Shown here: positions 1 to 30,000 of the stretch, in pieces
Layout: every line of letters begins with the position of its first letter
Position numbering within the stretch: position 1 is the stretch's first letter
NCBI GenBank assembly: GCA_030264375.1
Contig: JASCQW010000043.1
Span: 60,953,606 to 61,017,605 of the forward strand
Direction: 5' to 3'
Origin: Carcharhinus longimanus
Lineage: Eukaryota
DNA: 64,000 nt
Program-made: the position numbers

Positions 1-3000
1 CCACATTCTGGTGCCTGTTCGGGTACACTGAGGGAGAATTTAGCATGGCCAATGCACCTAACCAGTACATCTTTCAGACGGTGGAAGGAAGCCCACACAG
101 ACACGGAGAGAACGTTCAGACTCCGCACAGACAGTGACCCAAGCTGGGAATCAAACCAGGGTCCCTGGTGCTGTGAGGCAGCAGTGATAACCACAGTGCC
201 ACCATGCCACCTCACGTTACCTCATTAATGAGCGAGTTAAAAACACCAATGGATATTAAACACACACATATATCAGATACTATTAGTATGTTTATCATTC
301 TAATAAAAGAAAGGACACTTGCGATGACATAATGTTGCAGATAGCTTTAAGTCTTCCTAGTACCCTCCAGATGGATTCCTATTCATTGTTGAAATGAGAT
401 ATGGCCAGGAGGCAAAGATTCTTTTCCAAATTAACCCTTATTTACATCTTTAACTATGTACAAAGCTTTGGGACAGAGACATTGCTTATCTCTCGGATTG
501 TCCTCATTTTCACCTGGGTGACATCATTATTACATAGCTCCTTACACACGTGCTCAGTAGCTATTGTTAGAGCAGTATTAGAGTTAACTTTTTACTCTAC
601 ATATACAATTTTTCCAAAATTGCACAGTGTTGGATCAGGCAAAACAAGCTATGTGAGAATCATCGGCTTCACAGACGCCTTTTCTTGCCAGGTTTAACAG
701 CACCAGTATTGGCAAAGATTACACAGCCAGCTAGAGGGATGGGGCCTAAACACACTGGCAAAGCCAGTCTTCTGAGTCCTGGGTCTGATCTCTTAAAGAT
801 AAATTTCAGATTCCCCGTTCCCTCACCATGGAGATTGGGGACCCTCCAAAGAATCAGGGCACCCCCACCAAATGCCAAATTGGGACACCCACCCACCTTG
901 CAGCATTGAGGTTCTCTGCTCTCCCCCACAGATCCTTCACAGGCATTGGGGTCCTCCATAATATGGGGGGATGGGGGAGGCGGATGATGCCAAAATCAGC
1001 TCCTTCATTTCATTAATCTGTGTTGAATTCAAGTTGTATTGTCAAAAGTAAAGAGATATTTGTCAAACATCAGTCCCCTATACACACAAAGGTTACTTTG
1101 GTTCTATGGCATGTCATGTAGAAATTGAGTAAGTCAAACCCTAAAGAACCCCACCTAGACCCTGAACACAAAATGAAACATACCTGCATTGCCAAGTGGA
1201 AATTCAGTCGGCATGAGAATGAGGCCTTCGTAAGGTGCATAATTAGCAATAATTGGCCTCAGTTGGCTTGGCAATGCTTTCTGGTGGACAGCTAATTTGA
1301 CCCTGAACCATCCTTGCTGAAAATGGCTTGGGGTTGGGGTCATGGTGGTGAACCAGCACACAAGATCACAGCGCCAAACCACCTCCAAAACCAGGATCAT
1401 TTAAAAAGTCTGGGCCATGTAGCCAATTCTAATCTCATTAACCTTTACATTCATTAGAGATTTGTTAATTCTATATCATAGCAATTTGTTCTGTATTCAG
1501 TCCAGGTTACATTATTTTCATCTCTATGTATCAATTTAATTTACGTAATGCATGTACATATCACATGGAGTGCAGCAGTTCAAGAAGGTGGATTGCCACC
1601 ACTTTCTCAAGGACAAGTAGGGATGGGCAATAAAATGCTTGCCTAGCAAAGAATGCCCACATCTTGTGAAAGAACAAAAGAAGTAGTACATTTCAATAGT
1701 TGATTAATCAATATAACCTTAAGTTGTGCTGCTATTATTTTCTGGATATGTTGATTAGTGAATTGGGTTCTTGCTTATGTTTCAGAATGCAGTTCAAACC
1801 ATGAAACAATATATTGACTTACAAAAGGTGAGATTCTCCCAGTTGATTAAACAGTATTCTCAGCATGTTACTTTAAAAGAGGCAGAGAAAAAAATCAAGC
1901 ACTACGTTGTTACACCAAAGCCCACTTCAGAAGTTTACAAAAGAATGAAAGAACTGTACATAAAGGTACTTCATCATAACTAACATAAGTTGCTAACACC
2001 TGATGCAATTCTATATTACTAAAAGACTTGCCTATGATATGTGCTACCTGTCCACAAATTTTACTTCTGATTGTCACAGTATTGAGAAACATTTCCAATG
2101 TCAATCTATATAATAGATGTTGTATGTGCGAATGTTTATAATTGGAATTTCCAATCTAAACATCCTGGGCTGAATAATACACAACAACAAGGGCCTGTAC
2201 TCTACCTACATGTTATTAGATGCAATGTTGTGTTGCATTCCCAACATCAACATATCAGAACTTAATAATACTGTTGGTGGGTGGGCCTAGAAATTGGGAG
2301 CCTGCCCACCTTATTTAAATTGGTTTCAAATGGTTTGTTAAAGTGGCAATTGACTGGAAAAATACATACAGGGGAGCAATACAAAGTTGAAAGAGTGTGA
2401 ATTATGCCAGGTGGGGATCTCATATTCTTTACTGAAAGATTGTAAGAGTGGTTAAATGTCACCAACTGTGTCCTTTGTTAGACCTCAGCAGTTCAGGCTG
2501 CTGTGAGTGCCGCTACATTTGTTATTGAAAGCAGTGAGTAAAGGCAATACCATTGCTGTTTTAAAGCTGCAATGTGCCTGCAGGGAAGTGCAGTTCATGC
2601 CTCATCTGTAACTCAGCCTGTTTGGTTGTAAGAACAGGGGAATAGTAGTGTCCATAGGAAACACATCCTCCAAAGAGGAGGAGCAGAAGGAGATTGAGAG
2701 AGAGAAGGCCAGATGATCAGGTGCAGGATGCACTGGTGGTATATGAGGGTAAGCACAATAAGAAGTCTCACAACACCAGGTTAAAGTCCAACAGGTTTAT
2801 TTGGCAGCTCAAGCTTTCAGAGTCTTAGGGGCTCCTTCTTCGGGTGAGTGAGGGGTTGTGTTCACAAACAGGGCAAATATAGACACAAACTCAATTTACA
2901 AGATAATGGTTGGAATGGAGTATGAAGGTTGCAGACCAATTTGAATATGCTTCTCCTGCACTTGAGTGGACAAAATCACAGCATAGCCAATTCCAGGAAA

Positions 3001-27000: not shown

Positions 27001-30000
27001 TTATAAAAATGATTTGCATATTCATGACCTGCTAATTTTCTGAAACTAAGCTTCACATTATACAAATGAGGTGTCTGTTAAATTATAGAAATGTTTGAAG
27101 ATAGTCGTGACCAAAATACAGCCTCATCTCATCATTGAGTATTTCTGTCCACTGGGCAATTTTGCCAATCTGTACCTCACAAGTCAGACAACTGGATATG
27201 ACTTCGAAGTCACCTTTGAATTCACAAGAAGAGAAGAAAAACAAGAATAAACCATTGGTATTTAAAATGTATTTGATTATTCAACCACTAAAATTGAAGA
27301 AAACATTTTTAATGAGTCTGGAGATTTGATATTAGAGTAGAGGGCAGAATGCTCGTTAAATGCTTTAATTGAATTTATGGCTGAACATTGATAAAGTTTA
27401 AAATACATGGTTCAGGAAGATTCATTTCTATATTTACATTTTCTTTACAAAAAATCTAAATTCTTAGTTTTGAATATATCAAAAGTGAAATCTTAAAGAA
27501 AATCTTGGAAACACTCAGCATATCTGGCAGTATCGGTGGCGGCATGGTGAGTGAATTAATGAAGAATCGTCAACTTGAGACTGCAGGCTGGACTTTTTTG
27601 TGGCCATTGAGACGCACCCATGTCTTCAACATATCAACCCATGTCCTCAGTGTGCCCACTGAAGCAACATACTGGACTCCCAGACTCCCAGTTGGTCACC
27701 TCCATACTTGTCATTCTAATTAGGAACAGCAGGCAAAATCCTGATGCTGCAGGCCCAATCAAAGAGTGCGCAGCATTGTTAGGCTGACAGCCTCACTAGG
27801 AGAGCTGGGTGCTGCCAAGGCAGGCAAGTGACCATGGGAATATTTCAATGTAGCAGTGCCCTCGGGCACCTGCATTAAAGTTATAAACTAAAGAAGGCCA
27901 AGGCTGATAGGGCCATCGGGTTGAAGGGCCAACCTGAACACCTCCTCCCCCGCACCCCCCCCAACTAAACAGGACAATTAACTGATGGGCCTTTTCAACC
28001 TCACGTCCCCTGTCATATTATTCAATGCTGAAGTTTATTCAACCTGCTCTATGCTCTATAATGTTGCAGCAAAAATATGTGTAAACCAATAATTAATCAC
28101 TTCTTTAATTAGACTAAATTCTACAGCGTAGCTGGTTTGCCTTAAAATGATTAAATGTTTCTTTCTGACTTCCTTCTTTTAATCAGGCCATCTTTCTATA
28201 ATGATACATATGGTGTTGTGCCTTTGGAGGCCAACCTCTCAAAGGACATGGTGCGCTCTTTTCCGAATGTTGTCAGGTGGAGAGCAGTCAGCAGTCCTTA
28301 GCAGCACTGCCTGCCAGCCACCCTCGCGACATTCTCATTATGATATGCATAATGTATTGGGAGTACTGCAAATATTGTTTTGGGGTAATCTGTTATTTTC
28401 ACCTAAGACCAGCGCACTGGCCAGCATGTGATCTGCTGTGATCTTAGCATCACTATGCTTTAACTGTTATTATTGGCCCTAATAACTTTACCTTCCTAAA
28501 CTACAGTAAATGAGAACTTGTAAATAAGATTTTAGAATAATATAAAAAAGTATTTTAAGGAACAATTTATGCACTTCACATGCATAAGTGGGACGGTGCT
28601 GGTTTTCTGCATATATTTAAATTGTATCAGTAAATTTGCCTGTTGCAATAATGCAGACACAATGGAGTTGGAGTCACAGCTGTTTTTGTTTTCTGTGCCT
28701 TAATTGTTTGCCAAGATTATTAATTAAACAGTCAGTGTAAAGCTACTGTGACATGTCTTGTTTTTTTGACTTGGTAATTTTTTCCTTTGCATTAGGTATA
28801 GTGAAATTATAAACCTTTCCTTGTAAACATGCTCATATTTTTGCTTGATATGATAGAAAAGAAGAAAACTTCCCATTCCTTTGCATCCTGGAATCAATTA
28901 TATAGATTCTTTGTTTCATTCTGCTCAGTTTTGGGATGATAATCAATACATTTCTGGTTGCACCACCTCTACATCACCAGGAAAAATTGCTCAGTTTGTA
29001 ACATTTTCTTCTTTTTGGCACTTTCACTGATTTTGCCTCCTGCCTGTGTACAATTGCTAAAGGGTTGCTCCACTTCGGATAGGTGCCATTGCGAATTACC
29101 TTCTATTTTTGCTTTTTAAAGAGAAAAGTAAGTACTACGTTCACATAGCAATATATGCACCATTATCCCCACAAGAGTACACCTAGAGACACTCCTGTCT
29201 GTGTTTAACATCCTTGGGGAAACTTTGACTTCCAAATAAAACTACTAGAGAGAAATGGTACAAGGTGCAAGAAAATTTGCAGCCAATCTCAACCACATGT
29301 TCTGCAGTGGGTGTTTAGATCCTAGTTGGCCTTAACTTCCATGCCACTGGATTGTTCAACAGTGTCACAGGGGATGTCCACAAAATAAAGTGGAGACAAA
29401 TGTAGCAAGCAAGTTACAATGTTCAGTACAGTCAGCATTTGTACCTTTTATGTTCACAATTTATATCAATGATTTGGATATGGGGACTAAATGTAATATT
29501 TCAAATTGAAAGACGTGCTGGTTGGGTGCATTGATCCGAACAGCCACCGGAGAGTGGCGACTAAGGGAATTTCACAGTGACTTCATTGCAGTGTTAATGT
29601 AAGCCTTACTTGTGACTAATAAATAAACTTTAAATTTGTTGATAACACAAAACTAGGTGGACATTTCAATTCTGAGGAGGATACAATAAGGCTTCAAAAG
29701 AGTTTAAATAGGTTAAATCAGCAGGCAAGAATATCACAAATGGAATATAGAAATATATGAAGTTATTTATTTTGGTAGCAAAAACAGAAATGCAGGGTAT
29801 TTCTTTTAGTGTTTGTAAGGGTTAATAAGTGAGATTGTGTAAACAGCACCTCCCATAATGATGAAATAAGAGAACACATGACATGGAGTTGAGGGGGATA
29901 ATGTTCGTTCTTCCGCAGCATACACTTAGTCATGGATAGCTGTACATAGTTTAGTTGTATATAATAAACTGGTTATTGTTTGAACGTATTAACATCTCAG

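What the first reader, a model, noticed from the sequence alone, without database searches (positions are those of the whole stretch)
1786..27251. Hidden multi-exon gene upstream of SNX2 with a FAM186-like C-terminus
Seen: exons 1786-1965, 3302-3444, 13977-14121, 17589-17809, 19294-19430, 20176-20247 and possibly 27089-27138 have AG/GT boundaries, and their phases chain (0,0,2,0,2,1,1) into one stop-free frame of about 315 codons. Exons D and E are absent from the ORF track. Recalled: the pattern QY...W.E...R...L.N.L..I.....L.L..P, then IW and PRILEIEL, parallels the FAM186A/B C-terminal region (W.EKQ..L...R...M...F..L...L.L..P; IW; IP.LLQL.). In human, SNX2 is preceded by SNCAIP, and FAM186A/B lie on another chromosome. 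Inference: a divergent, little-described FAM186-family member kept at this locus in cartilaginous fish and lost or moved in mammals.
[Added by the scan's program, not by the reader: the finding's places include an assembly gap (unread letters, written N; its length is only estimated) at 4322 to 4421, 6460 to 6997, 8226 to 8235, 11104 to 11203, 11600 to 11609, 12008 to 12107. Whether the letters on both sides are continuous or in frame is not known: test that first.]
Basis: partly seen in the sequence, partly recalled or inferred. Interest (0 to 1): 0.7.

Follow-up and report, generated by a model that had tools for sequence, protein, structure and literature searches.

The report
Shark gene with FAM186-like domain
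The seven proposed exons are real and form the last third of a conserved but uncharacterised jawed-vertebrate gene upstream of a sorting-nexin gene, and two of them encode a helical region distantly related to the FAM186A/B C-terminal domain.

Summary
All seven exons have AG/GT borders. The phases chain as 0,0,2,0,2,1,1, giving 315 codons and a TGA at 27136-27138.

Splice motifs alone prove nothing: 5054 open AG..GT intervals lie in the same span. Homology is the proof. Each exon, translated alone, aligns collinearly with NCBI "uncharacterized protein" models. Against Scyliorhinus torazame the identities are 51/60, 43/47, 31/48, 55/73, 30/45, 19/23 and 13/15. The chimaera model aligns too.

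All assembly gaps lie in introns, and the orthologs show no residues missing at those junctions.

The window holds only the C-terminal ~315 residues of a protein of roughly 800-1200 aa. The rest lies upstream of the window.

The FAM186 link is indirect. No window exon hits Pfam FAM186A-B_C. The bowfin ortholog does (E 3.3e-8, 34.1 bits, cut-off 37), and a sturgeon ortholog does weakly (1.4e-3). Both hit the region equivalent to exons A-B.

The family is wider than cartilaginous fish: it also occurs in chimaera, sturgeon, paddlefish and bowfin. Loss in mammals and synteny elsewhere were not testable.

This is an ordinary gene of a poorly known family, of low to moderate interest.

The parts
1786..1965 (+). 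Exon A (internal, phase 0 to 0), 60 codons. It encodes the first long helix of the FAM186-C-like region and carries the QYSQHVTLKEAEK motif.
   Evidence: AG/GT borders and open frame. 51/60 identical to S. torazame P0001 residues 486-545, 32/60 to the chimaera model, 26-29/60 to ray-finned fishes. tblastn E 4e-25. Protein search E 3e-21.
3302..3444 (+). Exon B, 47 codons plus 2 bases. It encodes the second long helix and the ESGLFLIKPSLSWKG motif. It is the best conserved exon.
   Evidence: 43/47 identical to P0001 546-592, 39/47 to the chimaera model, 25-29/47 to ray-finned fishes. tblastn E 1.7e-23. The split codon to exon C reads R, as in the orthologs.
3445..13976 (+). Intron B-C. It holds all six assembly gaps named in the finding, plus retroelement fragments.
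   Evidence: Gap list. RVT_1 fragment at 6143-6457. Orthologs join B to C without extra residues.
13977..14121 (+). Exon C, 1 base plus 48 codons. A basic stretch predicted to be disordered.
   Evidence: Frame 1 open. 31/48 identical to P0001 594-641, 20/48 to the chimaera model. tblastn E 2.9e-12.
17589..17809 (+). Exon D, 73 codons plus 2 bases. It carries the SVENYLQGIWK and TTPRILEIELKR motifs.
   Evidence: 55/73 identical to P0001 642-714, 32/73 to the chimaera model. tblastn E 4.8e-30. W676, P697, L700 and E701 are invariant or nearly so across 10 orthologs.
19294..19430 (+). Exon E, 1 base plus 45 codons plus 1 base.
   Evidence: 30/45 identical to P0001 717-761, 22/45 to the chimaera model. 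tblastn E 9.6e-12. The split codons read S and E, as in the orthologs.
20176..20247 (+). Exon F, 2 bases plus 23 codons plus 1 base.
   Evidence: 19/23 identical to P0001 763-785, 21/23 to Heptranchias, 11/23 to the chimaera model and to sturgeons. tblastn E 5.5e-7.
27089..27138 (+). Coding part of terminal exon G, 2 bases plus 15 codons plus the TGA stop at 27136-27138.
   Evidence: 13/15 identical to the last residues of P0001 (787-801) and it ends at the same place. tblastn E 6.3e-4. Stop codon.
27139..27251 (+). Probable 3' untranslated region up to an AATAAA signal at 27246-27251.
   Evidence: Read directly from the sequence. The cleavage site itself is not shown.
37385..37510 (+). Coding start of the downstream sorting-nexin (SNX1/SNX2-type) gene. 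The coordinates are approximate and the donor was not verified.
   Evidence: The ORF reads MAAEREPPPFGDG.... Pfam Sorting_nexin N-terminal E 1.7e-8, and PX domain E 4.6e-11 in the exon at about 51917-52105.

Best explanation
Positions 1786-27251 on the + strand hold the last seven exons (315 codons, stop, short 3' UTR) of an intact protein-coding gene. It is the ortholog of a jawed-vertebrate gene that NCBI pipelines predict as 'uncharacterized protein'. Examples are Callorhinchus LOC103182381, Pristis LOC127572922, Amia LOC136754993, Acipenser LOC117973215 and Polyodon LOC121328450.

The full protein is about 800-1200 residues. Its N-terminal exons lie upstream of the window.

Exons A and B encode two long helices followed by a strongly conserved ESGLFLIKP..SWKGR motif. 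Together with one upstream exon, this block is a distant homolog of the Pfam FAM186A/B C-terminal domain. Exons C-G encode a mostly disordered, basic tail with a few conserved short motifs.

Inferred, not shown: the protein has no enzymatic signature and most likely acts as a scaffold or adaptor. It would bind partners through its helical hairpin or coiled coils and through short linear motifs in the tail. By analogy with mammalian FAM186A/B transcripts, this may happen in male germ cells.
For: Shown:
- Exon chain, phases, split codons and stop.
- Exon-by-exon collinear homology to 10 named orthologs, down to the chimaera for all seven exons.
- The same stop position as S. torazame and Heptranchias.
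- No match of P0001 residues 1-483 in the window at E below 1.
- Heterodontus P0155 extends the gene a further 438 residues upstream.
- Chimaera and sturgeon models are 1072 and 1221 aa.

FAM186 link:
- The bowfin ortholog P0006 is 35% identical to the Heptranchias protein over 90% of its length (E 8e-71).
- P0006 carries a precomputed PF20865.3 label.
Its next Pfam hit is at E 0.16.
- Sturgeon P0008 scores E 1.4e-3 on the same profile part, 12-163.
- P0005 and P0003 have the family at E 0.67 and 1.0, again starting at profile position 13.
- The matched part maps to P0001 residues about 453-599, that is an upstream exon plus exons A, B and the start of C.
- The invariant columns of the family cluster in that same part.
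- The family profile also finds many unnamed proteins of about 1000-1200 aa that match only profile positions about 224-370.

Structure:
- AlphaFold2 on P0001 with 10 orthologs gives two helices, 481-525 and 531-579, at pLDDT about 56-73.
- Residues 579-801 are below pLDDT 50.

Expression analogy:
- FAM186B is among the most strongly reduced transcripts in azoospermic testis (PMC9133692, table passage).
- FAM186A is listed as a bull-sperm-enriched transcript (PMC5343582, table passage).
Against: - No window exon on its own hits PF20865, even at E up to 10.
- Only 2 of the 10 orthologs that hold the region reach E below 0.01. The best score (34.1 bits) is under this copy's curated cut-off of 37.
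- The S. torazame, Heptranchias, Pristis, chimaera, A. ruthenus and paddlefish proteins show no PF20865 hit at E up to 1.
- No ortholog shows any other FAM186 domain.
- Long helices can give spurious profile matches.
- No expression data exist for this gene in any species seen here, so transcription, tissue and function are all inference.
- The model is of low confidence overall (mean pLDDT 38.9).
- The two atlas searches and the search of solved structures gave nothing usable.
Confidence: 0.8

Rival explanations
1. The gene is real, but its likeness to FAM186A/B is a compositional artefact of long amphipathic helices. It would then be an independent vertebrate family with no true relation to FAM186.
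For: The best Pfam score is below the gathering cut-off (34.1 against 37 bits). 6 of the 10 orthologs that hold the region give no PF20865 hit at E up to 1. A. ruthenus P0153 gives none although the closely related A. oxyrinchus P0008 does. No window exon hits. The matched part is predicted as two long helices. No N-terminal FAM186 domain was found in any ortholog.
Against: E 3.3e-8 is seven orders of magnitude better than any other Pfam family on the same protein. Four orthologs independently place the match at the same profile start (12-13) and on the same family region. The database's own precomputed annotation gives PF20865.3 to the bowfin protein. The matched block is the most conserved part of the family.
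Confidence: 0.2
2. This is not a third paralog. It is the fish ortholog of FAM186A or FAM186B, and mammals keep that gene at another chromosomal place after rearrangement and fast divergence.
For: 14 unnamed representative proteins of 765-1664 aa match the family profile from position 22 or earlier to 489 or later, at E 1e-42 to 1e-68. Their taxa are unknown, so tetrapods are not excluded.
Against: The Pfam FAM186A-B_C model, built from FAM186A/B, scores only 34 bits or less on this family, while the family profile scores about 160-250 bits on those 14 proteins. This suggests they are not the Pfam seed family. No FAM186 N-terminal domain was detected in the orthologs. That such a Pfam model exists is recalled, not taken from a call.
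Confidence: 0.12
3. The exons are a recently dead or silent copy (a unitary pseudogene) in this species.
For: No expression evidence. No protein marked as the window's own (shown with '-') appeared in the three protein searches. The upstream exons are outside the window and unseen.
Against: All seven exons are open with canonical borders and conserved split codons, and the stop sits at the orthologous place. Identity to another shark is 65-91% per exon.
Confidence: 0.05

Closest known systems
NCBI 'uncharacterized protein' models: Scyliorhinus torazame (P0001), Heterodontus francisci (P0003), Heptranchias perlo (P0004), Hemitrygon akajei (P0005), Pristis pectinata LOC127572922, Callorhinchus milii LOC103182381
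   Same: The same exons in the same order. Per-exon identity is 65-91% to S. torazame and 44-83% to the chimaera model. The split-codon residues match, and the stop matches two sharks.
   Different: The window holds only the C-terminal 315 residues. The ray models (Hemitrygon, Pristis) end differently after exon E, and the Pristis model lacks exons B and C.
Ray-finned fish orthologs: Amia ocellicauda LOC136754993, Acipenser ruthenus LOC117973215, A. oxyrinchus AOXY_G1134, Polyodon spathula LOC121328450
   Same: Full-length homology at E 8e-71 to 1e-147. Exons A and B are about 43-62% identical.
   Different: Exons C-G are only weakly alignable or not at all. The proteins have different lengths (586-1221 aa).
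FAM186A / FAM186B (Pfam PF20865, FAM186A/B C-terminal domain)
   Same: The block formed by an upstream exon plus exons A-B matches the first two thirds or so of the Pfam profile in the bowfin and sturgeon orthologs. Like FAM186A/B, it is a long, largely helical or disordered protein without a known function.
   Different: The scores are below the curated cut-off. The window exons and the shark proteins do not reach significance on their own. Profile positions about 170-229 are unmatched. No other FAM186 domain was found. The gene sits next to a sorting-nexin gene, whereas human FAM186A/B lie on chromosome 12 (recalled, no call).
'coiled-coil domain-containing protein 186-like' (Heterodontus francisci, P0155)
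   Same: Its residues 439-719 are 70% identical to residues 1-274 of the S. torazame ortholog, and it lies on the same contig as P0003. It is therefore the split-off N-terminal half of the same gene.
   Different: The CCDC186 name comes from an automatic pipeline. No test here supports a relation to CCDC186. That part of the gene is outside the window.

Membership tests
Jawed-vertebrate 'uncharacterized protein' family (LOC103182381 / LOC127572922 / LOC136754993) | Collinear homology of the whole C-terminal part, exon by exon | tested here: met
   All 7 exons align in order and contiguously to P0001 486-801 and to chimaera P0007 721-1032.
Jawed-vertebrate 'uncharacterized protein' family (LOC103182381 / LOC127572922 / LOC136754993) | Family-invariant residues and motifs (QYSQH.TL.EA; ESGLFL.KP..SWKGR; W676; P697, L700, E701) | tested here: met
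   The invariant columns come from 10 orthologs. The window translations of exons A, B and D carry QYSQHVTLKEA, ESGLFLIKPSLSWKG, IWK and PRILEIEL.
Jawed-vertebrate 'uncharacterized protein' family (LOC103182381 / LOC127572922 / LOC136754993) | N-terminal half (coiled coil, MASSSQCILNEVLTV block) | not testable with these tools
   No match to P0001 1-483 in the window at E below 1. That part must lie upstream of base 1.
FAM186A/B | Match to Pfam PF20865 (FAM186A/B C-terminal) at or above the curated cut-off (37 bits) | tested here: inconclusive
   Window exons scanned singly: none at E up to 10. Orthologs: P0006 34.1 bits, E 3.3e-8; P0008 18.9 bits, E 1.4e-3; P0005 E 0.67; P0003 E 1.0; six others none. 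A precomputed PF20865.3 label sits on P0006.
FAM186A/B | FAM186A/B N-terminal domain (that such a Pfam model exists is recalled) | tested here: not met
   No such hit at E up to 1 in any of the 11 named proteins scanned, including those with long N-terminal parts (P0001, P0005, P0007, P0153, P0155). The window itself lacks this part of the gene.
FAM186A/B | Orthology shown by a tree or reciprocal best hits with named FAM186A/B | not tested
   No named non-human FAM186A/B sequence could be obtained.
FAM186A/B | Male germ-cell enriched expression | not testable with these tools
   No transcript data for this species. For mammals only table passages were seen.
SNX1/SNX2 sorting nexins (downstream neighbour) | Sorting_nexin N-terminal domain plus PX domain | tested here: met
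   PF03700 E 1.7e-8 and 2.9e-4; PF00787 E 4.6e-11 on single exons. SNX2 versus SNX1 was not resolved here.

The most novel reading that the evidence does not exclude
The gene represents a third, ancient branch of the FAM186 domain family (a 'FAM186C'-type gene). It would be older and longer than FAM186A/B, retained next to SNX2 in cartilaginous and early-branching ray-finned fishes, and lost or unrecognisably diverged in mammals. If so, the orphan FAM186 C-terminal domain has a deeper, pan-gnathostome origin in a coiled-coil scaffold protein.
Probability: 0.3. Interest if true: 0.4.

Novelty: new member of a known kind. Interest (0 to 1): 0.25.

Why it matters
The result gives a clean exon-level annotation of the 3' part of a gene that automatic pipelines predict inconsistently. 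Heterodontus has it split in two and misnamed, the Pristis model lacks two exons, and several models are truncated.

It also ties an uncharacterised, widely conserved fish gene to the equally uncharacterised FAM186A/B domain. That helps anyone tracing the origin of FAM186, or choosing a non-mammalian model to study what this domain does.

It does not bear on a long-standing question. No unusual mechanism is implied.

Tried and rejected
1. Pfam on each window exon alone gave no FAM186 hit. The weak DUF6364 match (E 0.014) on exon A is taken as chance.

The taxa of the 14 full-length hits and of the many domain-only hits therefore stay unknown. I did not fetch or scan those hits because they may be human and are not named references. 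The reading 'second tier = FAM186A/B' is thus unverified.

3. The ESM Atlas was searched twice (P0001 440-720; P0006 215-390). There were no feature hits, and the structure hits were bacterial at TM below 0.4, which is meaningless.

4. A profile search of solved structures gave only E about 0.01 matches to malaria surface proteins over 40 residues, taken as chance.

5. The AlphaFold2 model was too poor (mean pLDDT 38.9) for a fold search, so none was run.

6. Rfam on the whole window gave 0 matches.

7. The third paper search was badly framed and returned nothing on FAM186.

   - dN/dS, because no ortholog DNA is available.
   - Synteny in other vertebrates, because the only open contig collection is bacterial and archaeal.
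   - RNA-seq junction support.

Full-length questions were asked of named database orthologs instead.

10. No binding test was run, since no partner is proposed.

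
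Full report
**What is in the sequence**

Each is preceded by AG and followed by GT, and each has exactly one frame that fits the chain.

- The lengths sum to 948 nt, which is 315 codons plus a stop.
- The last interval ends in TGA at 27136-27138. It is therefore the terminal coding exon, and the GT behind it is not a donor.
- An AATAAA lies at 27246-27251, which explains the finding's end coordinate.

**Is it more than chance?**

The splice motifs alone are not. The span 1786-27251 holds 15958 AG..GT intervals of 50-250 nt. Of these, 5054 have at least one open frame, and 642 also pass a crude pyrimidine-tract and GTR-donor filter. A phase-compatible chain could therefore be picked from noise. 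The proof comes from homology.

- Exon A, translated alone, finds four elasmobranch proteins at E 3e-21 to 6e-19.
- Their sequences contain, in order, counterparts of all seven exons down to the last residues ...QNTASSHH.
- tblastn of the S. torazame protein (P0001, 801 aa) against the whole 64-kb window hits exactly the seven places, in order.
- No match better than E = 1 lies elsewhere in the window, and residues 1-483 of P0001 have no such match at all.

| Exon | Identity to P0001 | P0001 residues | tblastn E |
|---|---|---|---|
| A | 51/60 | 486-545 | 4e-25 |
| B | 43/47 | 546-592 | 1.7e-23 |
| C | 31/48 | 594-641 | 2.9e-12 |
| D | 55/73 | 642-714 | 4.8e-30 |
| E | 30/45 | 717-761 | 9.6e-12 |
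| F | 19/23 | 763-785 | 5.5e-7 |
| G | 13/15 | 787-801 | 6.3e-4 |

- The identities come from local alignments of each exon translated on its own.
- The four split codons give R, S, E and E, the residues that shark orthologs have at those junctions.
- The chimaera protein (Callorhinchus LOC103182381, P0007) also aligns collinearly over residues 721-1032, with 32/60, 39/47, 20/48, 32/73, 22/45, 11/23 and 7/15.

**Assembly gaps**

- All six gaps listed with the finding lie inside the intron between exons B and C.
- A seventh, 24042-24141, lies in the intron between F and G.
- No exon touches a gap, so continuity of frame across a gap does not arise.
- Orthologs pass from B to C and from F to G without extra residues, so there is no sign of an exon lost in a gap.
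- Exon order and strand on both sides of the gaps agree with the orthologs, so the scaffold is consistent.
- Intron lengths are uncertain. I did not fill or look up any gap.

**Extent of the gene**

- Exon A starts at an acceptor, and P0001 residues 1-483 have no match in the window at E below 1. The 5' exons therefore lie upstream of base 1.
- In Heterodontus the gene is split into two models. P0003 is the C-terminal 403 aa.
- P0155 is named 'coiled-coil domain-containing protein 186-like' and lies on the same contig. Its residues 439-719 are 70% identical to P0001 1-274, and it reaches 438 residues further upstream.
- The chimaera and sturgeon models are 1072 and 1221 aa.
- The window thus holds roughly the last quarter to two fifths of the protein.

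**Family and the FAM186 question**

Named relatives found:

| Group | Species |
|---|---|
| Sharks | Scyliorhinus, Heterodontus, Heptranchias |
| Rays | Hemitrygon, Pristis |
| Chimaera | Callorhinchus |
| Sturgeons | two Acipenser species |
| Paddlefish | Polyodon |
| Bowfin | Amia |

Pfam results for PF20865 (FAM186A/B C-terminal):

- The single window exons show no FAM186 hit at E up to 10.
- The bowfin ortholog P0006 (35% identity to the Heptranchias protein over 90% of its length, E 8e-71) carries a precomputed PF20865.3 label.
- In my scan P0006 scores E 3.3e-8, 34.1 bits (curated cut-off 37), on residues 233-381 and profile positions 13-169 of 229. Its next family is at E 0.16.
- Sturgeon P0008 scores E 1.4e-3 on profile positions 12-163.
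- Hemitrygon P0005 and Heterodontus P0003 list the same family at E 0.67 and 1.0, from profile position 13.
- The six other orthologs that hold the region give nothing at E up to 1.

Where the match falls:

- Mapping through the alignment puts it at P0001 residues about 453-599. That is one upstream exon, exons A and B, and the first residues of C.
- This is also where the invariant columns of the 10-ortholog alignment cluster.

I conclude that a remote but real relation to the FAM186A/B C-terminal domain is likely (about 0.75-0.8). It is carried by exons A-B and shown by transitivity, not on the window's own letters. No other FAM186 domain was seen in any ortholog. I therefore do not file the gene as FAM186A or FAM186B.

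**Wider distribution**

A profile of six orthologs was searched against 1.84 billion representatives. It gave 190 proteins at E up to 1e-3, 94 at up to 1e-10 and 35 at up to 1e-30.

- Among the 150 listed, 14 unnamed proteins of 765-1664 aa match from profile position 22 or earlier to 489 or later. These look like full-length homologs.
- Many others, often about 1000-1200 aa, match only positions about 224-370, the FAM186-C-like block.
- At least 11 short fragments match from 312-316 to 361-365. That is the span of exon B (profile 317-364), which suggests a conserved exon border.
- Their taxa, and the idea that the domain-only tier is FAM186A/B, therefore stay unchecked.
'Lost or moved in mammals' cannot be judged. 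Synteny with SNX2 in other species could not be examined, because no vertebrate contig collection was open.

**Structure and likely working**

AlphaFold2 on P0001 with the 10-ortholog alignment is poor overall (mean pLDDT 38.9, pTM 0.24).

- It gives two long helices, 481-525 and 531-579, at pLDDT about 56-73. These correspond to exons A and B.
- After them comes the conserved ESGLFLIKP..SWKGR motif.
- Residues 579-801 (exons C-G) are below pLDDT 50, with three short helices in exon D around the conserved W and the PR[IL]LE[IM]EL motif.
- Further helices, one of about 50 residues, lie in the N-terminal half.
- There is no enzymatic or membrane signature in Pfam and no solved relative.

The best-supported reading is a non-enzymatic scaffold or adaptor that binds partners through a helical hairpin or coiled coils and through short linear motifs. 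This is inference.

A role in male germ cells is a weaker inference, resting on two observations.

- FAM186B is among the most reduced transcripts in azoospermic human testis (PMC9133692, one table passage).
- FAM186A is listed among bull-sperm-enriched transcripts (PMC5343582, one table passage).

I found no functional study of FAM186A/B. The basis is three searches.

- 111 papers hold FAM186A or FAM186B, of which I saw the 25 best-ranked listings, mostly association or mutation lists.
- 12 papers hold FAM186 together with 'testis'.
- 8 papers hold FAM186 together with 'spermat'.

Supplementary tables were closed and may hold expression data.

**Surroundings**

- The downstream gene on the same strand starts near 37385 (MAAEREPPPFGDG...). 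It has Sorting_nexin N-terminal and PX domains, so it is an SNX1/SNX2-type gene. I did not separate SNX2 from SNX1.
- The introns and the intergenic space carry reverse-transcriptase and integrase fragments.
- Rfam finds nothing in the window.

**What was left out**

The joined model was not built, searched or folded. Questions about the full-length protein were put to named database orthologs.

**Verdict**

This is the 3' part of an intact, conserved, automatically predicted but uncharacterised gnathostome gene, with a distant FAM186A/B-C-like helical block. I class it as a new member of a known kind, with interest of about 0.25.

Noticed in passing
window 6143-6457 (+), 14820-15266 (-), 34451-34867 (+), 43792-44184 (-): Retroelement remnants. 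There are reverse-transcriptase fragments (RVT_1, E 6.6e-6, 7.9e-5, 1.1e-12) and an integrase-core fragment (rve_3, E 4.8e-4). They lie in the introns of the gene, in the intergenic space and in a sorting-nexin intron. Two of the reverse-transcriptase fragments (6143-6457 and 43792-44184) lie next to assembly gaps.
   Followed up: partly
Heterodontus francisci proteins P0155 and P0003 (same contig; not in the window): The automatic annotation splits this gene into two models. It names the N-terminal one 'CCDC186-like'. P0155 residues 439-719 equal P0001 residues 1-274 at 70% identity, and P0155 reaches 438 residues further upstream.
   Followed up: partly
Pristis pectinata LOC127572922 (P0002), against window exons B and C (3302-3444, 13977-14121): The sawfish model goes straight from the exon A counterpart to the exon D counterpart. 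This is either an isoform that skips two exons or a model error.
   Followed up: no
Hemitrygon P0005 and Pristis P0002, against window exons F and G (20176-20247, 27089-27138): The two ray models have different, shorter C-terminal ends and no counterpart of exons F and G. Sharks and the chimaera keep both exons.
   Followed up: no
one search hit table, against window exon B (3302-3444): At least 11 unnamed short proteins (64-150 aa) match the family profile only from positions 312-316 to 361-365, which is the span of exon B. This suggests the exon and its borders are conserved in many genomes where only fragments are predicted.
   Followed up: no
window 27252-37384: About 10 kb separates the AATAAA of the upstream gene from the start codon of the sorting-nexin gene on the same strand. 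No conserved coding ORF was recognised there apart from a retroelement fragment. The region around the sorting-nexin first exon (37261-37651) is open in several frames on both strands, as G+C-rich first exons often are.
   Followed up: no
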